Below, one piece after another: positions 24,131 to 59,900 of a stretch of DNA of 64,000 nucleotides. The stretch spans positions 114,948,001 through 115,012,000 of the forward strand of contig NC_042997.1 in assembly GCF_006345805.1 (NCBI RefSeq), written 5' to 3'. Under the pieces are notes generated by a model. It saw only the letters and a program-made list of their open reading frames with translations. It was not told the DNA's origin and did no database searches. Made by a program: the position numbers and the translations under genes. This stretch comes from Octopus sinensis (lineage: Eukaryota). Numbering within the stretch: the stretch's first letter is position 1; every line of letters begins with the position of its first letter.

Positions 24131-25904
24131 GAAGCAGAAAATGGAGAAGTGCTGATTAACAACAGTTGACTTACATCAATTATTTGTTAATTTAATACAA
24201 ATAGACTTCATCCTATCTAACAGGCCCATTGTGCAACACTTTGGGAATGTGTCTTCTACAAAGCCCCTAGGCCAGCTGAACCTTGAATTTGGTAGGCAGA
24301 AAGTGTGTGAAAGCCTGTCGTGCATGTGTTGGAATGCATGCATGCATAGATGTTTGTGTTGTCTTTCCCTACCACCGCTTGACACCAGTACTGGTAACTT
24401 AACAGTTTGGCAAAAGAGATTGATAGAAGTACTGCGGTTCATTGGTTGATCTAAACCCTTCAGGGTAGTACCCCAGCATGGCCATAGTCCAATGACTGAA
24501 ATTAGTCAAGATTTGTTATTGTGATACATTGTATTTAACATTGAGGTGATTCACTTATAAATTAGAACTTCCTGTATTTATGTTCAAAGCCACTATTATT
24601 GACTTCAAATTTTCACAGAAGGCCAGCAATTTCAGGGAAAGGATTCAGTTGATCGCATCAATGCCATTGCTCAGCTGGTATTTATTCTATTGAAGGCAGT
24701 GAGCTGGTAGAAACGTTAGCACGCCGGGCGAAATGCTTAGTGGTATTTCGTCTGCAGTTACGTTCTGAGTTCAAATTTCACCAAGGTTGACTTTGCCTTT
24801 CATCCTTTCGGGGTCGATTAAATAAGTACCAATTACGCACTGGGGTTAAAGTAATCGACTTAATCCCTTTGTCTGTCCTTGTTTGTCCCCTCTACGTTTA
24901 GCCCTTTGTGGGTAGTTTATTCTATCAACCCTGAGAGGACAAAAGGCTAAGTCGACCTTGGCAGAATTTGAACTCCAGATTGTAGAGATTGATGAAATAC
25001 CACTAAGCATTTTTCCTGGTATGTTAACGATTCTGCCAGCTCGTTGCCTTAATAACAGACAATGTATTGATAAGCTTGTGCCATAGATGGTCTCCAATGA
25101 AATTGGTTCAGCTTTACCATGATGCGGTAGTAATTATAATGATTAATTAAATCTTGTATATTATTGTTTTTTACACAGCAACACTTATCATCCCTCGTTT
25201 GTAGCACCAAACATCCTGCATCTTTTTTTGTTCTTTTTAAACCAGTTTCTATTGTTTCTCCAGCATGGCATATCTCTATTCATTTCAGCTTAGCACCATT
25301 TTCTTCTCTGTGAGTCTTGGTATTGTTAGGTCTGGCCTCAATACTGCTTCCCAAGTCTTTGTAGGCCTGACTTTAACCCGAGGCATATCCCCTGTCAACA
25401 ACCAGTAAGTACTTCATCAAAACGGCATGGTTGCCTCTAGCTGGTTGCTAGATACAGCAGCCAAGTTGCTTGCAAATCATATCTTAATGCTTTTTAATTA
25501 AGGACAGGAAACATTAGTGTAGTCCAATGTCCCCTGAAATAAATGGAATGGTTGGTGCTCTTTTACTTGTTTCAGTCATTTGACTGGAGCACCGCATTTA
25601 GTCGAACAATTCGACCCCAGGAATTATTCTTTGTAAGCCTAGTACTTATTCTATCAGTCTCTTTTGCTGAACCGCTAAGTTACAGGGACATAAACACACC
25701 ACCATCTGTTGCCAAGCGATGTTGGTGGGGACAAACATATTCACACACACACATACATATATACAATGGGCTTCTTTCAGTTTCTGTCGACCAAATCCAC
25801 TCACAAGGCTTTGGTCAGCCTGAGGCTATAGTAGAAGACATTTGCCCAAGGTGCCACGCAGTAGGACTGAACCCGGAATCATGTGGTTGGTAAGCAATCT
25901 ACTT

Positions 25905-27783
25905 TATTTCAATGAATTGGCCATACAGGTCTTACATAGAAGCAACTGCAGGCTGGACAAAACACAAGATGAATGAATGACAAAGCAAATAATGAAATTG
26001 GTGAAGGAAGGCAAGCAATGCCTTGCTGTTTCCCAAAAGCATTGTCCTTTTCTTTTCTAACAAATTGAAGTTATAAACCTCTTACTTTAATTCAATTGGA
26101 CTCAAGATCCTTACAAATGAGGCACTAAGCCTCTTGACTTTTTTCATTATTTTCCACCCCACTGGTGCCCGACTAAGCCTCACTCAAGCATATCGATGGT
26201 GCTAAGTCAGGGTGATTCAGCAGGAAGTGGATGGAATGTGTCTTTGGGGAAGGAGTTCATCACCTTGCACAAATCTGTTCCCCACATGACCTCCACAGCT
26301 ACCTGCGGAGGCCAATCAGGGTCCTTTGTACAGGTTAGAACCCCTCCCCTCCAACCTTCTTTGGTAAACTTTTTCATAAACTCTTGAATTGCCCCTTCCT
26401 TGTGGAATAGGATTACAAATTCCTCCTCCATATAGGGCGAGGCCCGTTTCCACTGTCGGTGACACAATTCCCACTAACAGGGTTTCGGGAAAAGCCGGCA
26501 GTGTATTAGTAACTACCAGCAATGCCTTATTTTTATTTTTCTTCTCTTTTACCATGGGAGGGTGCAGTTCTGTTTTGTCTGGAAGATTTTCCTTCCCTCC
26601 CACAGCCTTAGGATCACTCAGTGGGCAACCTTCTTCCTTTTTTGGCTCTTTTTCGAGGAGGTGGAAGCCTCCTTGACCGTCATCTCTCCCTCTGAATGAG
26701 GAATGGGGAGTGTTTCTGCCACTAACTGCTCCAAGACCCTACTCTGATCCTAGGGACAGTTCTTTTTTATGTGACCTAGTTCCAGTCACAGGTGACACTT
26801 GGGAGGAGGCATCCCTCAAGTATCACCAGATACCTGTTACCAGCCATGGTCAGAAAATCTGGGAAGACCAGATTTCTTGTGGCTGATTGGGTCCACAGGG
26901 TCAAAACAGCTTTTGACCCAACCCAATCAGCCACTGGCAACAACTTTACATTTAGCAGCTTGGATCTGCTGCCACCCAGACCCTGGCGGAGAGTGTCTTC
27001 TAACCACTCGGGCTCCATCACAGGTGGCAACCCACAGACCCAAGCTCTTGTCAACTTTTTCCCACAATATGTGGGAAGAAACAGGATTTCCTGGCCCTCC
27101 AAGGGCTGGTTCACAAACCTGCGAGCCTCCTCAGGGGTGTCTAACAGCAACCACACCATTGCATATTTGGCACCCCTGAAAATAAATTTTATGGTTGGCA
27201 GATACTCTGCCAACTCTTTCTCTATCTCAATTTTCTTGAAGACGGTGATGGTGTCGAGCGACTTTGAGTATGTCCTCAACACCACTGTCCTCTCTTCAGA
27301 GTCTTTCACCCACTCTTTGGGTGGGACAATCTCCCACTCAAACACAGTGTCTAGTTTCTTCGCCATGTTCTTTAGAAGAAAAAAAATTCCAAAGAAAGTC
27401 GGAAAAGGAGACGAAGGAAGAAGGAAAGAAAACAGTTCAAGAACACAGTGACCACAATTTTCCGGCCAACTGGTACTCCAAATAGCAACAGGAACACAGC
27501 TCCACAATTTTTGGAGGTGGGATACACCCCCTAAACAACACACTTCTCACTACTAAGTGAGACAGTAAGCGCAACTACAGGCAGACAAATGCCTGGAATC
27601 CAGTAGAGATTACTTGTTTGAAAAAAAATAAACACAAACAACAAAACCCCACTGAATCCCCAAAAAACAAATGCCTTACCTTGTAGTTGTGCCTCACTAG
27701 TTCAATAATTCATGATGCTGGTGTGCAGCATGATGCACGCCAGCATCATGACTCCTCCCAGTGTGAAGGAAACACTGACACAT
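25905..27783 (-). mobile_element. ORF1/gag-only retroelement (HAL1-like), frameshifted, inserted into a family-A SINE
   Basis: TSD GCAA(T/G)CTACTT at 25894-25904 and 27784-27794 splits the SINE head. AATAAA lies at the 3' end. ORF runs from ATG 27366 (MAKKLDTV) through a decayed zinc knuckle (~26750-26790) to stop 26207. No RT. Confidence 0.78.
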
Positions 27784-28642
27784 GCAAGCTACTTACCACA
27801 CAGCCACTCCTGTGAAACAAAAAGCACCCATGTTGGCACCATGTAAAACACACCCTGTACATTCTGTATAGTAGTTGGCATTAAGGGCATCCTCCGATGC
27901 CAAAACATGACTGGAGCCTGGTGGGCTTGCCAGCATGGAAAACAGATATTAACTGATTGATGTCACAGCTGTAATGTCTTTGAGCATAAAGTCAGCTTGA
28001 CCAAAGAACACGTTATCACCTCTCTGGTTAATTGCCTTTGATATGACATCAAAATAAAAATCAATTGGAAATTGTAGTTAAGATACCTGTGCCGGTGACA
28101 CGTAAAAAGCACCGTCCAAACGTGGCAGATGCCAGCGCTGCCTGACTGGCGTCTGTGTTGGTGACACGTAAAAGCACCAACCGATCGTGGCCGTTTGCCA
28201 GCTTCCTCTGGCCCCTGTGCCGGTGGCACGCAAAAAACCCCCACTACATTCACGGAGTGGTTGGCGTTAGGAAGGGCATCCAGCTGCAGAAACACTGCCA
28301 AATCAGACTGGAGGCTTGTGCAGCCTCCTGGCTTCCCAGACCCCGGTCAAACCGTCCGATCCATGAAAAACGAACGTTAAACGATGATGATGATGATGAT
28401 AATGCAACCACTTTCTCAAGTTGCTCAAGTCATTCATTGTCAGCCCTAAAGAAATTTGTGATACATTACCAATATCTCACAACCATGTAGCATCTCACAT
28501 CTGATACTCCATGCTGAGGAGGAGAAACACTTTGTTGGGAACACAGATAACTCTTTAACCCTTTTTTTATGCTGATCCATCAAAGACTACTCTTGGTTTT
28601 ATGATACACACTTTTCTTGAAGTTATCTAAATTCAAACCATC

Positions 28643-46089: not shown

Positions 46090-46320
46090 CTGTTGGATGA
46101 GTTTGTCGTGAAGATCATCAAGTCAACCTTCCTTTAAAAAGGGAGGGAAAGCTTCGCTTTTTGGTGGCCTTGGTGAAACAGATTGTGTAGGGGTCAAAGC
46201 TGAAAGGATTGAGAGCAGACATTTTTCTCTTCAGTCAAGCCTCTATTGAATTTTTGAAGCTCCACCTGAAAAGAAAAGGGAGGATGGAGTGGGAAGTATT
46301 CTTCAACTGTGAATTCATCT
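46090..46320 (+). mobile_element. Possible degenerate L1/Tx1-type ORF2 C-terminal fragment
   Basis: FLVALVKQIV*GSKLKGLRADIFL...EFLKLHLKRK resembles the [LI]xxxK.xIW.xR region that follows the Tx1 ORF2 zinc finger. Recognised by eye only. Confidence 0.4.
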
Positions 46321-48480: not shown

Positions 48481-49478
48481 AAGGGCAAGAGAAAAAGAAG
48501 AAAGGGAGAGAGAAAGAAAGAAAGAAAAAGAGAGAGAGAAAGAAAGAAAGAAAGAAAGGGAGAGAGACTGTGTGAGTATGTGGTGGTCACTTTGGTTGAG
48601 GGCTACTCAAACTGGCATGAAATAAATCGTTGATAAAATAAGATCAAAAACTGAAACAACAATATTAAATATTATTAAAAGGGAAAACATTTTACTCCGA
48701 GTATTTTTCCTACATCCACCTAAGGTGGTATTCCGACAGTAATCCTTCGTTAGTAACGTTTTTTTCCCCCTTTTCCTTTTTTTTTTTTTTAGCTGTAGGC
48801 GACTTAGGAAAATAAAGCTACATTTCAAAATTTTTATTATCGAATATTCTTGTAAGAGGTAAAATTCTAATTAATTAAAGACCGAAAATGAGTTGATAAT
48901 TAAATTACATGTAAGAAAATGCTTCCTTTTTCTAGACAGGCTGATTTTTTTGATTTTTTAATTGCAGCCTTTCAAATATTATTTTTCTGCACAAGGATTG
49001 ATTAAATGCTTAACATGGTCCCTTTCGAATGATAAGTATATCCCTATATTACATTATCCTGACCGTAATTGTTATACAGAATTGGTAAAGAAGAATCCCT
49101 GTAAGTTAGTGACGAGCTAAAGGGAAATAACTGCTATAATTTTTTTAACTGTAAATACTATCCGTCATTTTATGATGTTCTTGGGGAAAAAAAAATCTTT
49201 TTGACAATTCTCTTAGAATCTTACGTTCCAAATTTGTATGAAATCCTATTGTAACTGCATTTAAAACCGAAGTTCCCAATTATTATAAACCCAAACTGGA
49301 ATACCAACTTTACGAGGTTTTAATCGACTAAAAATACAGCAGTCTACAATACAAACAAAGATTGCTAAATTGTAAGCAAAACCAAACTTCAACGCAATAA
49401 CGATTTTATGTAACGAGTTGCTAGTCTCGACTAACTAAAACCAACACTGAACACGTCATGCCACAAACAGAACAGAAC

Positions 49479-51116
49479 GATTTTTTTATTACCCATAAAT
49501 GGCCCACAAAGAGGGACATATATCACATTGGGGACATACAACAATTGCAAAAAATAAAATAAAATGAAACGGATGATATAATGAAAGATGGAAAGATGTA
49601 AAAATGAAAATGGTGTTACTTGCCCCCTCAAGTAACATCACTTGCTTCCTTTCCTCTGTTTTCCACTATGTTTAAGCCATACCTCTTTTTCAGTTCTTTA
49701 AATTCGATAACCTGTGGAAGCATTTCCTTGTCAAAGTCAATCTTCCACAGTTCATACTCCCCCTTGTGCCTCTCTACTTCCATCCTTTGCTGTTCCGTTA
49801 ATAACAGCACCACACCTTCCACTCCATCCTCTGCCTCTACATCAACATCAACCGTGTTCTCCCATTCAATTGCCTTTTCAAACAGGCCCTCATCGTATAT
49901 TATACAAGCAAAACAGCTAATGGGAGGGGAAATTTGTGAGTCATTGTGTGAATCTGATCTTTTCTTTTGTTTTTGTGATGGAGGGGAATGGGAAGGCTTA
50001 GTGTCTGCAGGGCGAGGGTGGGACAAAGAAGGTATGGGTGGGCTTTGGGTAGTTGTTGGTGGAAGTTCTGTGTGTATCAGACTTGTCTTTTCCTCTTCCT
50101 TCTCTTTCTTTTTCTGGTATTTTCCCATTCTTCCCCTTTTTCTGGAACCATTTCTTCCTCTTCTTGTCCTTCCTGGGGTTCTCTTGTGTCTTCTCCTTAT
50201 GGTCTTCTTGTATTTCCTCCACTCTTTTATCTCGTGGAGGGCATTTCGCTCTTATGTGGCCCTTCTGGCCACATTTAAAACAGTGAGTTATTCTGCCCTC
50301 CACCCTTACATTCATTATGGTTTCGTTTACAGTCACCATTTCCACCATTTCTTCTATTGCCTCATTGGAACCTTGAATTATCCTGTTCAAAATTTGGCCT
50401 TTCCCAATTCATGCTTTCCGTCTTTGTGGCCTGGTGCACCGCTATTTTGTCCTCGGTTTCAGCTAAGACAACAGCCGCTATCCAGGCCACATCTATCTCT
50501 GGTGGAATTCCTTCTACCCTTATCTGAGATGTTCTCTGTCCCAGGTACGTAGGTAGAAGTACTAACTCACTTAGTGGTGTTGCCGCGTGCTTTTCCACCA
50601 TGTTTTCATTTATGAATATATCTTCAACTTCTCCAAATATCGACCCTCTGCCAAGATATGTTATTTCTTGCCAAATTGGCCTCAGCACCTTCTTTATTTG
50701 CTCTGTTGTCATGTGGTCAATTTTTCCCTTCTTAATCAAGTAGGTCTTGTATGTCACCGTTCTTCCTTTCATTATTTTTGTCGTTTCATGTGGTGGTGGT
50801 GATGGGGGGGGGGTTACTTGCATGTTGTAACCATCCCAACTTAATAATTTCTTGAATTTATCTATTTCGTTCTCCACATTGTCATCTGATTCTCCGGCGA
50901 CATCTGCGAACTTCCTCTTTCTTCCTTCCAATTCCTTGCCCGTAACATCAATAGACCTTAACAGTTCTTCAGATGTTGACATCTCTGACCCGCTTAGGTC
51001 TGAGTAAAATAAATTCCTTTTGCTAGCCATCACTAACTCTGGAAGAGAGAAAACATGACCAAATTGCTGCAAAACAGCACACAGCAATCAAAACTTCACA
51101 AAAGCAATTCAACAGG
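49479..51116 (-). mobile_element. Second ORF1/gag-only retroelement, with CCHC zinc knuckle CFKCGQKGHIRAKC and two frameshifts
   Basis: ATG at 51030 (MASKRN), ORF pieces 51030-50362, 50390-49998 and 50128-49628. AATAAA ~140 nt after the stop. A 15-bp direct repeat CAAACAGAACAGAAC lies at 49464-49478 and 51117-51131. The protein aligns with the 26-27 kb element. Confidence 0.8.
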
Positions 51117-51294
51117 CAAACAGAACAGAACTCCGTGCATATAACAACAATCAAGACAATCAAAATCACGTAATCAAAACTAAAATCACAAAACCAATTT
51201 GAAACTGAAATCCCCATTTGAAATATCAAGACACTGACATTATTTAAAAAGAACTTCATAGTTTCAAAAGGTAAATAACAACAACAACAACAAT

Positions 51295-56950: not shown

Positions 56951-59900
56951 AATCCTCTGCCAAAGTTAAGAATAACCGTTTTAAATTATTACGCTTTCAC
57001 TTTCACTGTAAACTTGTCTCTTTATGTGTTCACAGAATAAAGACCCATCATATCCTGTTATATTAAGTTAATAAACTATGTTGTCTCTACTTATATATTT
57101 CTGCTATAAACAAGAAATATGAATATTTCTTACTGTCAAAAAGAATAAATCTCGAAAAGAAATCTTTGAGCCGATGTATCTGGCTTCTGTAAATCACTGC
57201 ACTTCACAACATACATCTTTAAACTGCTTCTTAGAATATATTACTGCTATTTCTAGTCATTGCAAGGAGTGGCTTTGTAGTAAGTAGCTCGCTTACCAAC
57301 CACATGGTTCTGGGTTCAGTCCCGCTGCGTGGCACCTTGGGCAAGTGTCTTCTTCTATAGTCTCGGGCCGACCAAAAGCCTTGTGAGTGGATTTGGTAGA
57401 CGGAAACTGAAAGAAGAAGCTCGTCGTATATATATGTATTTATGTTGGTGTGTCCGTGTTTGTCCCCCTCCCCCAACATTACTTGACAACCAATGATGGC
57501 GTGTTTACGTCCTCGTGACTTAGCGGTGCTCTGGCATGGCCGCAGTGAAATGACTGAAACAGGTAAATAAAATAATAATTTCTTTAGATTGTTAGATATT
57601 TCTTTGCCTCACTAAATATTGGTTTCAAATTTTGGTACAAGGCCAGCAACTTGTACGTATTTTATCAACCCCCAAAAGGATAAAGGTCAAACTCGACACT
57701 GGCAGCATTTGAACTCACGTAGGATAGAAGGACAAAATGTCAATTCTTCTAGCTCGCCGCCTTTGTCACACTAAATATTAACGAAATTAAATCATGATCA
57801 TCATCATCGTCCATTTTCTATGTTGGATTGGGTTGGATGGTTTGATTGAAGCCTGGAGAGCCAGTGGCTGCCCCAGTCTCCAATCTGATCTGGCAGTGTT
57901 TCTACAGTTGGATGCCCTTCCTAATGCCAACCACTCTGAGAATGTAGCAGGCGCTTTTTATGTGCCAGTGGCACAGGAGCCGGTCAGGTTGGCCTGGCAT
58001 CGATCATGTTTGGATAGTGCTTTTTATGTGCCACTGGTACAGGGGCCAGTCAGAGGGTACTGGCATCAGCCATATTCGGATGGTGCTTTTTATGTGCCAC
58101 TGGTACTGGTGGCATGTAAGAAGCACCATTCAAGTGTGATTGTTGCCAGTGCTGCCTGACTGGTTCCTATGCCATTGGTACGTAAAAAGTATCATTCGAA
58201 CATGGTTGATGCCAGTGTCACCTGACTGGCCCTCATGCTGGTGGCACGTAAAAAGCACCCATTACACTCTCGGAGTGGTTGGTGTTAGGAAGGGCATCCA
58301 GCTGTAGAAACTTTGCCAGATCGGATTGGAGCCTGGTGCAGTCATCTAGCTCTCAAACCATCCAACCCATGCTAGCATGGAAAGCGGACGTTAAACTATG
58401 ATAATGATGATGATAATATAGGCATGTTACATAAGAAAAGGTAAAGAGGTTAGAGAGACCAGTTTGTTGCAACGAGTTCCAGAAACTCTGCTGGACGGCT
58501 TAGTGACTCTCTGGTCTGAGGTTGAATTTCCCAGCTTCTAGAATCTTTAGCTAAATTGGTGTTATTTTTTTGGTGTTATTTTGTTTGTTTATTCATTTTT
58601 TTGCCATGCCCTTACTGTTTTTTTTAGTAAATTACATTGTAGTGAGGCTCATGCTGAGTATTGAACTATAGCTCTCAGATTTTCCCAGTCTAGAGCCACA
58701 TCATAATGTATCTCCATAAATGAAATCAATGCCTACATGACTATGGCTTCACCAATCAGAATTGGTTCACTTATTGTGGTGGAGGCAGCAGACTCATCAT
58801 CATCATCATCATCGTTTGACATCCACTTTCCATGCTGGCATGGGTTGGACGGTTTGACTGAGGACCGGCAAGCAAGGGGTCTGCACCAGGCTCCAATCTA
58901 ATCCGGCAAGGTTTCTACAGCTGGATGCCCTTCCTAATGCCAACCACTCCGAGAGTGTAGTAGGTGCTTTTTATGTGCCACTGGTACGGGTGCTGGGTGC
59001 TGTCTGTCAGGTGGCATTGGCATCGACCACACTCGAATGGTGCTTTTTATGTGCCAGTCAGGTAGCACTGGCATCAGTCATGCTTGAATGATGCTTTTTA
59101 TGTGCCACCGGCATGGCTGCCAGTGAGGCGGCACTGGCAAATGTTGAAGAATATTAAGCTAAAAACATTCTTGAAATTAAAGCATTGCTTTTTTTATTTT
59201 ATCTGTTTATCTGTTTTTCAAGTTCTTTGCCTGTCAGTACTCGTCACTCAACCTAAATGACTTGGCAAATAACATCAAAGTAGCATATCTACCGCCAAAC
59301 ACAACCGGCTTGATTTAACATATGGGGCATGTGGCCTCTTGCTATATTCAAGGCCTACTTTTTGCAGTTGCACTTCTTATGAACTTAGCAACAACATTAA
59401 GCCAATGCTACTGGGAGTACTTCTTGGAAGCCTTATGAGTATTTGAGAGAATCTGTTTCCTTCTAAGCTTTTAGTGCTTATTGTCCCTGTACACATCATC
59501 ATCGTTTAACGTCCGTTTTCCGAGCTAGCATGGGTTGGATGGTTCGACCGGGGTCTGGGAAGCCAGGAGGCTGCACCAGGCTCCAGTCTGATCTGGCAGT
59601 GTTTCTACAGCTGGATGCCCTTCCTAACGCCAACCACTCCATGAGTGTAGTGGGTACTTTTTATGTGCCACAGGCACAGGTGCCAGGGAGGCTGGCATCA
59701 TCCACAATCGGTTGGTGCTTTTTATGTGCCACCAACACAGAAGCCAGTCAAAGCGGCGCTGGCATCAGCCACGTTCGGATGGTGCTTCTTACATGCCACC
59801 GGCACAGTTATCACAACTACACCTGCTATATATAAAATCTACATTCTCTGTTAGCCTACCTATCATCCAATGCACCACTTGTGGACCCTCTATATCAGTT

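What the first reader, a model, noticed from the sequence alone, without database searches (positions are those of the whole stretch)
49464..51131. Second, divergent gag-only element defines a family
Seen: RTVTYKTY...YLGRG...LLPTYLGQRTSQIRVEGIPPEIDVAW aligns with RTVVLRTY...FIFRG...FLPTYCGKKLTRAWVCGLPPVMEPEW of the 26 kb element. Both then have a zinc knuckle, a K/P-rich linker, a small C-terminal domain and AATAAA, with no ORF2. A 15-bp direct repeat starts 6 nt after AATAAA. It may be a TSD or an element-internal terminal repeat, since similar T-rich sequence continues to ~51250. Inference: two highly diverged elements with the same ORF1-only plan imply an old, selected lineage.
Basis: partly seen in the sequence, partly recalled or inferred. 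Interest (0 to 1): 0.75.

Follow-up and report, generated by a model that had tools for sequence, protein, structure and literature searches.

The report
Dead ORF1-only half-LINE retroposon copy
This is a frameshifted, dead copy of a 1.64-kb retroposon that carries only the RNA-binding first gene and the 3' tail of a two-gene LINE, lies between a 15-bp target-site duplication, and likely spread by borrowing the reverse transcriptase of related LINEs, much as mammalian HAL1 elements do.

Summary
On the minus strand, 49479-51116 is a 1,638-bp element. It is flanked by a true 15-bp target-site duplication: five empty copies of the host repeat carry the 15-mer once.

It encodes one LINE ORF1-type protein, now split over three frames. 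The protein has predicted tandem RRM-like domains, a CCHC knuckle, a basic linker and a C-terminal region. Its core is homologous to the 26-kb element (E 3e-10). It is closer (38-45%) to ORF1 of two-ORF LINEs (endonuclease + RT + zf-RVT) in the same genome.

In 28 of 29 loci its 3' tail follows directly behind ORF1, and none has ORF2 there. Many copies are 5'-truncated, and four independent insertions have 13-17-bp duplications. This is a discrete HAL1-like "half-LINE" family. Its terminal motif matches the autonomous LINEs' 3' ends.

In an ORF1 tree it sits in a 44-row clade with no confirmed ORF2-linked member. Intact younger members show dN/dS of 0.21-0.28.

So an old, selected ORF1-only lineage is supported, with limits:
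- This copy is a fossil.
- The two window elements use different tails and targets.
- Their C-terminal regions are not detectably homologous.
- A single origin is neither shown nor rejected (AU p 0.60).

It is a new variant of a known kind.

The parts
51117..51131 (.). 5' copy of the 15-bp target-site duplication (GTTCTGTTCTGTTTG on the minus strand)
   Evidence: Read from the sequence. Single in 5 of 5 empty copies of host repeat Y.
49464..49478 (.). 3' copy of the target-site duplication
   Evidence: The flank scan gave 0 of 100 shuffles as good for the sister copy L024.
49479..51116 (-). ORF1-only retroposon copy, 1,638 bp. It lacks about 30 nt at the 5' end relative to the longest copies.
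   Evidence: blastn ends shared with other copies.
51031..51116 (-). 5' untranslated leader
   Evidence: Alignment of 5' ends with six other copies.
50365..51030 (-). Frame A: Met, an acidic N-terminal part (YSDLS..STSEE motif shared with younger ORF1-only families), and the first RRM-like region
   Evidence: A structure model of an intact relative (36% identical to this window stretch) supports the RRM-like fold.
50238..50763 (-). Conserved ORF1 core (RTVxYKxY ... VEGR..C..C....H....C), split by a frameshift near 50405
   Evidence: Profile hits at 50763-50401 (E 1e-37) and 50417-50238 (E 2e-16). A +1 base at ~50405 relative to L012.
50238..50282 (-). CCHC zinc knuckle (CFKCGQKGHIRAKC)
   Evidence: Pfam PF00098, E 2.8e-4.
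49961..50237 (-). Lys/Arg/Glu/Pro-rich linker holding the second frame change (1-base gaps at ~50179 and ~50091 relative to L012)
49631..49960 (-). C-terminal region in frame C; stop codon at 49628-49630
   Evidence: Conserved within the family (75-82% with L012 and L026). Not significantly similar to LINE ORF1 or to the 26-kb family.
49479..49627 (-). 3' untranslated region ending in the conserved tail ...TGTCCCTCTTTGTGGGCCATTTATGGGTAATAAAAAAATC, with AATAAA at 49485-49490 and no poly(A) tail
   Evidence: Tail alignment with LINE 3' ends. Genome search with the tail.
49280..49463 (-). 3' part of host repeat Y, into which the element inserted
51132..51191 (-). 5' part of host repeat Y
25893..27810 (-). 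The comparison element at 26 kb. It is a decayed copy of a different, very abundant ORF1-only family. It is bracketed by the head (27783-27810) and the remainder (from ~25883) of a SINE-like repeat. Its tail is TGAAATAAAGTAGATTGCT at 25893-25911.

Best explanation
The stretch is a dead, frameshifted copy of a non-autonomous LINE derivative that keeps ORF1 and the LINE 3' tail but has no ORF2, and it was likely inserted by target-primed reverse transcription with endonuclease and reverse transcriptase supplied in trans by a related two-ORF LINE.

Shown:
- The element is 1,638 bp and is flanked by a true 15-bp target-site duplication inside another repeat.
- Its single former ORF is homologous to ORF1 of two-ORF LINEs in the same genome.
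- Other copies share exactly its 3' end, lack ORF2, are often 5'-truncated, and have their own 13-17-bp duplications.
- Its terminal ~45 nt match the terminal motif of the autonomous LINEs.

Inferred:
- An ancestor LINE lost ORF2 by internal deletion but kept the 3' tail that the LINE's ORF2 protein recognises.
- The RNA is translated into ORF1p, predicted to be two RRM-like domains plus a CCHC knuckle, that is, an RNA-coating protein. ORF1p probably binds its own RNA in cis. That would explain purifying selection on the ORF in the younger, intact families of the same clade.
- ORF2p from a partner LINE nicks the target and copies the RNA from the tail.

After insertion this copy decayed, with at least two frame changes. 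The composite 'repeat Y + element' was copied once more, to contig C15.
For: Family and ends:
- blastn of the element against 11 related loci gives 5' ends at 51118-51133 in 5 loci and 3' ends at 49479-49485 in 6.
- The last 160 bp has 44 matches among 88 candidates in the genome.
- In 28 of 29 fetched loci the tail is contiguous with ORF1's C-terminal coding part. In 0 of 29 is ORF2 upstream of it. The two ORF2 matches (L033, L038) lie more than 880 nt downstream of the tail.
- About 19 of 29 copies begin more than 300 nt inside the unit.

TSDs:
- The window TSD is proven by empty sites.
- Clear flanking repeats (0 of 100 shuffles as good) occur in 6 of 23 copies: L024, L025, L026, L032, L038, L044. 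L024 is the sister copy of the window's own insertion.

LINE kinship:
- 10 of 10 homologs picked for long open frames have, directly after ORF1, an ORF2 of about 1,131 aa with Exo_endo_phos, RVT_1 and zf-RVT.
- Identity to the window ORF is 38-45%.
- The tail motif lies 576-790 nt after the knuckle in ORF1-only elements and ~4,330-4,395 nt after it in LINEs.
- Tail alignment A1 shows the shared GTCCC(C)TCT.TGT..CC.T.TGG..AATAAA(G/A)AAA.

Protein:
- Pfam zf-CCHC matches 18 of 22 family members.
- The AlphaFold model of an intact relative has pLDDT 82-95 over residues ~40-255.
- Foldseek's best matches are tandem-RRM proteins: 59 with E <= 0.001, best 3.4e-5, TM up to 0.50 on Sxl and HuR RRM1-2.

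Lineage: tree and dN/dS.
Against: - No copy of this particular family with an intact full-length ORF was found among about 40 loci, so activity and ORF1p function are inferred from sister families.
- Trans-mobilisation by a specific LINE was not shown. The match between tails is a ~45-nt motif (a 16-nt blastn hit, E 0.1). No conserved RNA structure was predicted for it (on a partly mis-cut alignment).
- The 'no ORF2' label for the 20 mid-identity relatives rests on tblastn over 5.4 kb. Two of the 20 have weak RT-only matches (25-27% identity) about 2 kb downstream.
- The RRM fold comes from a model of a relative only 36% identical to this window stretch. Pfam gives only sub-threshold RRM_3 hits, in 2 of 22 members.
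- The loci were sampled from ranked hit lists, not from a genome-wide census.
Confidence: 0.85

Rival explanations
1. The two window elements come from independent losses of ORF2 in different LINE lineages, as reported for mammalian HAL1, and not from one ancient ORF1-only ancestor.
For: - The free ORF1 tree places the 49-kb clade with the L013- and L014-type LINE ORF1s (SH-aLRT 88), apart from the long-branch 26-kb clade.
- The 26-kb family shares its tail and its SINE-like target with a third two-ORF LINE lineage (L140/L141), whereas the 49-kb family has the GGGTAATAAA tail of L013-type LINEs.
- The C-terminal regions are not alignable.
- HAL1 'originated independently several times' (passage in PMC5753468).
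Against: - The AU test does not reject all 74 ORF1-only rows as one group against 15 ORF2-linked rows. The constrained tree is 4.35 log-likelihood units better, p 0.60.
- Younger families inside the 49-kb clade (L105 and L109 types) carry the same SINE-site tail as the 26-kb family. Tails are therefore exchangeable and do not track ORF1 ancestry.
- Only four two-ORF lineages were sampled.
Confidence: 0.45
2. It is a one-off LINE copy that lost ORF2 by a deletion at this locus.
For: Internal deletions in LINE copies are common (general knowledge). The closest copy, L002/L024, shares even the flanks.
Against: At least 26 further loci with unrelated flanks share the same ORF1-to-tail junction. 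Several have their own TSDs.
Confidence: 0.02
3. It is a processed pseudogene of a host gene that descends from a LINE ORF1 (a ZCCHC3-like RNA-binding protein), copied by LINE machinery.
For: - The protein-atlas search lists ZCCHC3-like clusters among its leads, but the score of 0.83 is below the tool's trust level.
- A fish LINE-like protein with ZCCHC3-type RNA-binding domains fused to EN/RT is a relative of the partner ORF2 (P0010).
- Several copies are annotated as 'uncharacterized protein' or 'CCHC-type domain-containing protein' in Octopus species.
Against: - There is no poly(A) tail. The 3' end is the LINE terminal motif itself.
- There are thousands of first-look candidates and many diverged subfamilies, each with defined ends.
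- PF23057 and PF23058 were not matched by any of 22 members at E <= 0.1.
- No parent gene with introns was seen, although it was not specifically searched for.
Confidence: 0.04
4. It is the gag remnant of an LTR retrotransposon or retrovirus-like element.
For: The CCHC knuckle matches retroviral nucleocapsid knuckles in the PDB profile search (E about 1e-3).
Against: - Only the 18-residue knuckle matches. No capsid or Retrotrans_gag family is hit.
- There are no LTRs.
- Homologs are ORF1 of APE-type LINEs.
- TSDs of 13-17 bp and 5' truncation are LINE hallmarks (established knowledge).
Confidence: 0.01

Closest known systems
HAL1 ('half-L1') of mammals
   Same: A non-autonomous LINE derivative that encodes only ORF1p and depends on a LINE's ORF2p. 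It forms families of its own and has arisen more than once (passage read in PMC5753468, citing Smit 1999 and Bao & Jurka 2010, which I did not read).
   Different: - The host is a cephalopod-type genome: 7 of 10 top library hits looked up carry names, all from Octopus species.
- ORF1p is of the RRM plus CCHC-knuckle kind, not L1's coiled-coil/RRM/CTD kind (the latter recalled).
- There is no poly(A) tail; a conserved terminal motif takes its place.
- Partner LINEs look target-specific.
- The clade is diversified and has intact members under purifying selection.
Tx1-clade (L1-Tx1) target-specific LINEs such as Kibi, Koshi, Keno, Tx1L
   Same: - The two-ORF relatives have APE endonuclease, RT and a C-terminal zinc-binding domain.
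- They insert at fixed sequences. The L014 type is followed by a long (CT)n in 4 of 5 copies and by a short degenerate CT run in the fifth, like Kibi at (TC)n (passage in PMC4494074).
- Another lineage always ends in the same site of a SINE-like repeat.
- L1-Tx1 families are listed as recently active in Octopus vulgaris (table seen in PMC13282606).
   Different: Clade membership was not tested with reference RT sequences. The window element has no ORF2 at all, and this copy sits at a non-canonical site.
HeT-A of Drosophila telomeres (recalled, not looked up)
   Same: A non-LTR retrotransposon that encodes only a Gag/ORF1-like protein and relies on another element's RT.
   Different: HeT-A is telomere-specific, belongs to the Jockey clade and has a host function. 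Nothing telomeric is seen here.
SINE-LINE pairs that share a 3' tail
   Same: The non-autonomous partner carries the LINE's terminal sequence, the presumed recognition site for the RT (passage in PMC4494074 citing Kajikawa and Okada 2002; abstract of PMC5786205).
   Different: This partner is 1.6 kb long and protein-coding, not a short pol III transcript.

Membership tests
ORF1-only non-autonomous LINE derivative (HAL1-like class) | The coding region is homologous to ORF1 of autonomous two-ORF LINEs | tested here: met
   38-45% identity to ORF1s that are followed by EN/RT ORF2 in 10 of 10 loci. The profile alignment covers 179 columns.
ORF1-only non-autonomous LINE derivative (HAL1-like class) | No ORF2; a fixed junction from ORF1 to the LINE 3' end, shared by many dispersed copies | tested here: met
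   28 of 29 tail-bearing loci, 0 with ORF2 upstream of the tail. The window itself has no same-strand ORF2 match.
ORF1-only non-autonomous LINE derivative (HAL1-like class) | Marks of target-primed reverse transcription: TSDs and 5' truncation | tested here: met
   Empty-site proof for the window copy. Clear flanking repeats in 6 of 23 copies. Variable 5' starts.
ORF1-only non-autonomous LINE derivative (HAL1-like class) | Mobilised in trans by a LINE ORF2 protein | not testable with these tools
   Only the shared terminal motif supports it. A retrotransposition assay is needed.
HAL1 proper (mammalian L1 derivative) | Derived from the mammalian L1 lineage, with L1-type ORF1p and a poly(A) tail | tested here: not met
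   The protein is of the CCHC-knuckle type. There is no poly(A) run beyond AATAAAAAAA. All named relatives are from Octopus.
LINE ORF1p of the RRM + CCHC kind | CCHC zinc knuckle after the RNA-binding domain | tested here: met
   PF00098 in the window and in 18 of 22 aligned members.
LINE ORF1p of the RRM + CCHC kind | RRM fold | tested here: inconclusive
   For a relative 36% identical to this window stretch, the model has pLDDT 82-95 and Foldseek matches tandem RRMs (best E 3.4e-5, TM <= 0.50). Pfam RRM_3 is only sub-threshold, in 2 of 22. The window copy itself was not modelled.
Tx1 clade (for the partner LINEs) | RT groups with Tx1 reference elements | not tested
The domain order and target specificity fit.
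ZCCHC3-like proteins | Pfam RBD_ZCCHC3_1st and RBD_ZCCHC3_2nd domains | tested here: not met
   No match at E <= 0.1 in 22 members. There is only a weak atlas lead, 0.83.
LTR-retrotransposon Gag | Capsid-type gag domain and flanking LTRs | tested here: not met
   No gag family in Pfam. The flanks are a TSD inside repeat Y.

The most novel reading that the evidence does not exclude
Octopus genomes harbour an ancient, diversified and still intact lineage of protein-coding non-autonomous LINEs. The lineage has kept only ORF1 under purifying selection. It has swapped 3' tails, and with them partner LINEs and target sites, over time. Its younger branches home, together with their autonomous partner, to one fixed site in an abundant SINE-like repeat, building head-to-tail arrays. 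This would be a standing 'ORF1 specialist' parasite of LINEs, not a sporadic deletion product.
Probability: 0.45. Interest if true: 0.65.

Novelty: new variant of a known kind. Interest (0 to 1): 0.5.

Why it matters
ORF1-only LINE derivatives are documented mainly as HAL1 in mammals, and they are usually treated as occasional by-products.

Here the same design appears with a different ORF1 architecture in a mollusc-type genome. It is not a single family. It is a deep clade with thousands of candidate copies, intact young members and dN/dS well below 1.

This makes one question testable: is ORF1p needed in cis even when the reverse transcriptase is borrowed? It also offers a natural system of tail and target swapping between non-autonomous and autonomous LINEs.

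On the practical side, such copies are annotated as 'uncharacterized' or 'CCHC-type domain-containing' genes in Octopus protein sets. They should be masked as repeats.

The window copy itself is only a fossil and has no likely function.

Tried and rejected
- Expression: the look-up of sequencing runs with a young relative (L108 unit) listed no holder on record as RNA. Contigs of four runs whose RNA nature is only guessed cover that unit. I draw no conclusion on transcription from this.
- Conserved RNA structure in the tail: fold_alignment on 10 tails predicted no pairs, but two of my ten stretches were mis-cut, so the test is weak.
- tRNA origin of the SINE-like target: by eye its head has box A/B-like motifs. 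ARAGORN found no tRNA in the window, and Rfam gave no tRNA match on an intact copy at 57200-57700. I therefore do not call it tRNA-derived, nor the target an anticodon loop.
- Homology of the C-terminal regions: BLASTP of the window's last 110 aa against a LINE ORF1 gave E 51, and against the 26-kb family E 3.0. The whole third frame (207 aa) against the O. bimaculoides relative P0046 gave E 0.18. None is significant.
- Word-index protein search with an intact relative found only 2 proteins. The exhaustive profile search found 1,652 at E <= 0.001. These are mostly short fragments, and some are spurious multi-knuckle proteins.
- PDB sequence profile search hit only CCHC knuckles.
- The search of earlier findings returned nothing.
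- blastn between the element's 3' UTR and the LINE 3' UTRs gave only a 16-nt hit at E 0.1. The tail kinship rests on position and motif.
- Literature: searches for 'ORF1-only' + non-autonomous + LINE, HAL1, octopus + LINE + ORF1 and cephalopod + TE + Tx1 turned up no description of ORF1-only LINE derivatives in cephalopods. Term searches inside the two octopus repeat papers I opened (PMC9115989, PMC13282606) found no use of 'non-autonomous' in either, and ORF1 only as general L1 background in PMC9115989. Repbase and Dfam could not be consulted, and the supplements of those papers were not read.
Full report
THE OBJECT

The feature lies on the minus strand. Stop-to-stop frames and the sequence show three overlapping frames.
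- Frame 50362-51087 has a Met at 51030 and then MASKRNLFYSDLSGSEMSTSEE...RTVTYKTY...LLPTYLGQRTSQIRVEGIPPEIDVAW.
- Frame 49998-50408 carries CFKCGQKGHIRAKC. This is a Pfam zf-CCHC match, E 2.8e-4.
- Frame 49628-50251 holds a basic, proline-rich stretch and a C-terminal region.

In related copies one open frame of 313 aa runs through the ends of all three pieces (L012). The window copy therefore has frameshifts in one former ORF. Against L012 it has an extra base near 50405 and single-base gaps near 50179 and 50091.

AATAAA is at 49485-49490. The 15-mer GTTCTGTTCTGTTTG follows six bases later (49464-49478) and recurs at 51117-51131.

HOMOLOGY WITH THE 26-KB ELEMENT

BLASTP of the two window ORFs gives E 3e-10, 28% identity over 108 aa. 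A profile of the 179-column core, built from intact relatives, hits exactly these two places in the window.

The C-terminal regions are not shown to be related (E 3.0).

A DISCRETE FAMILY WITH LINE-TYPE INSERTION MARKS

A six-frame search of the window's own 2.72-Gb genome with the first frame gave 11,226 first-look candidates. The 151 that were scored all had E <= 3e-24. The closest were 77% identical and carried stop codons.

blastn against the 11 best loci showed shared ends: the 5' end at 51118-51133 in five loci and the 3' end at 49479-49485 in six.

The last 160 bp alone has 44 matches among 88 candidates. Of the 29 loci fetched:
- 28 have the tail contiguous with the ORF's C-terminal coding part. 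L051 gave only a 59-bp match.
- None has an ORF2 match upstream of the tail. Two have one more than 880 nt downstream, from neighbouring insertions.
- About 19 start more than 300 nt inside the unit. blastn may under-reach in diverged copies.
- Some loci are not independent: L029 and L030 overlap, and L036 and L039 share flanks.

A scan for flanking repeats found clear ones (0 of 100 shuffles as good) in 6 of 23 copies. L024 is the sister of the window's own insertion (same 15-mer). L025 has about 15 bp, L032 17 bp and L038 13-15 bp. Two more lie inside another repeat.

THE TSD QUESTION

The window's flanks are themselves a repeat ('Y', 141 candidates). Five uninterrupted Y copies read ...GCGCGGA-GTTCTGTTCTGTTTG-CGGCACGACGTGTTCAG..., with the 15-mer once. 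One of them has a 3-base deletion. The window has the 15-mer on both sides of the insertion. It is a target-site duplication, not an internal terminal repeat.

Y has its own ends. Contig C15 (L002/L024) holds the same insertion, with the same 5' start and the same TSD, inside a complete Y with different outer flanks. The composite was therefore copied once as a unit.

Many other family copies sit in a second abundant retroposon ('X', 3,228 candidates). In these, a 26-bp X sequence is duplicated on both sides of the element, while empty X copies have it once. L028 is a 5'-truncated copy of that composite, so X::element was itself mobilised through X's tail.

Two off-target copies (L025, L032) carry CAGATCT between the tail and the TSD. 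This matches the first bases of X. It suggests that the source RNA read a few bases into its flank (inference).

WHAT THE ORF IS

More distant homologs (38-45%) with long open frames are ORF1s of two-ORF LINEs. In 10 of 10 such loci an ORF2 starts within about 25 nt of the ORF1 stop. It carries Exo_endo_phos, RVT_1 and zf-RVT. Two more lineages turned up later (L106b/L107b and L080b).

So 'gag' here means LINE ORF1p.

A structure model was made for an intact relative (L108 ORF, 36% identical to this window stretch, 22-row alignment A2). It is confident over residues ~40-255 and disordered after the knuckle. Foldseek's best PDB matches are tandem-RRM proteins: SFPQ/NONO, IMP3 RRM12, Sxl and HuR. 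There are 59 with E <= 0.001, and TM reaches 0.50.

By sequence only the knuckle is recognised.

THE TAIL LINKS IT TO THE LINES

The LINE 3' UTRs end ...CCCCTAGTGGGTAATAAAGAAAT (L013 type) and ...CTTATGGTGAATAAAGAAAT (L014 type), exactly where copies stop being alike. The window element ends ...CATTTATGGGTAATAAAAAAATC.

An alignment of 12 termini shows the shared block GTCCC(C)TCT.TGT..CC.T.TGG..AATAAA(G/A)AAA.

The motif lies 576-790 nt after the knuckle in ORF1-only elements and about 4,330-4,395 nt after it in LINEs. The difference is the length of ORF2.

No copy has a poly(A) tail. I infer that an ancestral LINE lost ORF2 but kept the end that its reverse transcriptase recognises.

IS THERE AN OLD, SELECTED ORF1-ONLY LINEAGE?

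I fetched 6 kb at 20 homologs ranked roughly 10-35 (39-52% identity). Of these, 17 have no ORF2 match within 5.4 kb, two have weak RT-only matches (25-27%) about 2 kb away, and one has a match on the other strand.

Ten further loci revealed young families.
- The L105 type is a 1.56-kb unit, 90-98% alike, with an intact ORF of 412-420 aa in four of its six fetched copies and open frames of 362 and 315 aa in the other two (L110, L111).
- The L109 type has ORFs of 386 and 444 aa.
- Both have defined ends and no ORF2.
- Both share the window's N-terminal YSDLS..STSEE motif.

In a tree of 93 core sequences (179 columns; quick IQ-TREE, LG+G4), the window copy falls in its family (SH-aLRT 96-99). That family lies in a 44-row clade (SH-aLRT 99) with 42 rows lacking ORF2, one ambiguous row and one with too little flank. 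The clade excludes all 15 ORF2-linked ORF1s. One row without ORF2 (L098) groups with the L014-type LINEs.

Between the L105 and L109 families dN/dS is 0.21-0.28 at dS 0.87-1.1. Within the 26-kb family it is 0.33-0.50. The ORFs were chosen because they are intact, which biases this somewhat.

A profile search of 1.84 billion representatives found 1,652 proteins at E <= 0.001. Of the ten top hits looked up, seven carry names, all from three Octopus species. One O. bimaculoides protein is 69% identical to the 49-kb family core.

Pairwise JC distances between the window copy and its family are 0.14-0.27. A calibration printed for O. vulgaris puts JC 0.09 at about 25 My and JC 0.2 at about 56 My (passage in PMC13282606). 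If that applies here, the family was active very roughly 20-40 My ago (inference).

THE TWO WINDOW ELEMENTS COMPARED

The 26-kb family is far larger: 9,631 candidates, and the 150 scored were 62-82% identical. In 8 of 8 loci with intact ORFs of 420-477 aa there is no contiguous ORF2.

It is bracketed by the head and the remainder of an abundant SINE-like repeat. The head was found in 7 of 8 loci, the tail motif in 7 of 8, and the remainder right after the tail in 6 of 8. The window copy has all three.

The L105 and L109 families end in the same ...TGAAATAAAGTAGCTTGCT and start after the same head. So does a two-ORF LINE lineage, whose 3' end I fetched (L140, L141). In L105-L111 these elements stand head to tail, joined by the 15-mer AAGTAGCTTGCTAAC. 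This fits repeated insertion at one target site (inference).

Thus the 26-kb element and the 49-kb element have different tails, and probably different partners. Within the 49-kb clade both tail types occur, so tails have been exchanged.

The free tree separates the two clades. Even so, an AU test does not reject uniting all 74 ORF1-only rows (p 0.60; the constrained tree is 4.35 log-likelihood units better). One origin or several remains open.

COMPARISON WITH KNOWN ELEMENTS

[quoted passage not shown] The present elements work like HAL1 but are not HAL1.

The partner LINEs resemble the target-specific Tx1 clade: Kibi at (TC)n, Tx1 in a DNA transposon (passage in PMC4494074). The L014 type is followed by a long (CT)n in 4 of 5 copies and by a short CT run in the fifth. 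L1-Tx1 families are listed as recently active in O. vulgaris (table in PMC13282606).

I found no description of ORF1-only LINE derivatives in cephalopods in four literature searches. Term searches inside the two octopus papers I opened also found none. Repbase, Dfam and the supplements were not seen.

VERDICT

The element is a fossil copy of a HAL1-like, ORF1-only derivative of Tx1-like LINEs. It is not supported for this copy, and it is not established for a common origin with the 26-kb element.

Noticed in passing
window 25883-27810 (-); loci L077-L084: The 26-kb element belongs to a very abundant ORF1-only family (9,631 first-look candidates). Many copies have intact ORFs of 420-477 aa. Copies are regularly bracketed by the head and the remainder of one SINE-like repeat, always at the same 15-mer (AAGTAGCTTGCTTAC).
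   Followed up: partly
L105-L111, L140, L141 (contigs C8, C3, C5, C12161, C7 of G000): Head-to-tail arrays run in the order: SINE-like head, L105-type ORF1-only unit, one to three 26-kb-type units or a complete two-ORF LINE, then the SINE-like remainder. Each junction is the same 15-mer. The two-ORF LINE shares the tail ...TGGCAAAT..TGAAATAAAGTAGCTTGCT, so it is the likely autonomous partner and site-specific.
   Followed up: partly
L014, L017, L020, L021, L022: A young two-ORF LINE (L014 type) ends ...GGTGAATAAAGAAAT. It is followed at once by a long (CT)n in 4 of 5 copies and by a short CT run in the fifth. The upstream side also reads as CT repeats in L020 and L113. This looks like a microsatellite-specific LINE of the kind known from Tx1-clade Kibi.
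   Followed up: partly
L013, L018, L019 versus L015, L016: The other young LINE (L013 type) is followed by the same flank (TGGCATGGTTTGTCCGATG...) in 3 of 5 copies and by a second shared flank in the other 2. This suggests preferred targets in repeats.
   Followed up: no
L013, L015, L016, L018, L019: All five L013-type LINE copies carry a conserved antisense open frame of 179-225 aa (IIVLFSVSSLIVCGRAAIALF...) opposite the 5' part of ORF1.
   Followed up: no
L003, L005, L012, L026-L048; empty copies L116-L132: Repeat 'X' (3,228 candidates) ends in a hairpin-like CTCCGCCTTCGCTAAGGCGGAGGTAATAA, often followed by (TAA)n. It carried a 49-kb-family unit as a passenger, with a 26-bp duplication, and the composite produced 5'-truncated copies. 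L011 and L012 hold tandem units joined by the X 26-mer.
   Followed up: partly
window 49280-49463 and 51132-51191; L054-L062: Repeat 'Y' (~265 bp, TGTGATTTTAGTTTTGATCACG...GTTTGGGTTTATAACA, 141 candidates) is unclassified. A Y copy carrying the 1.64-kb insertion was copied to contig C15.
   Followed up: partly
window 46134-46289 (+): A 54-aa match to the C-terminal end of a LINE ORF2 (37% identity, E 2e-4). It is probably a 5'-truncated LINE remnant unrelated to the finding.
   Followed up: no
P0002, P0041, P0044, P0046 (library proteins): Copies of these retroposons are annotated as genes in Octopus protein sets. Names given include 'uncharacterized protein', 'CCHC-type domain-containing protein' and 'EPM2A-interacting 1-like'. 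One model fuses such a copy to C2H2 zinc fingers. P0041 is 99% identical over the 178-aa conserved core to a 26-kb-family copy (L064).
   Followed up: partly
P0010: A fish protein model joins ZCCHC3-type RNA-binding domains (PF23057, PF23058) to EN, RT and zf-RVT. It is 29% identical to the partner ORF2 over 99% of its length. This hints that ZCCHC3-like domains are the ORF1 of this LINE group in vertebrates.
   Followed up: no
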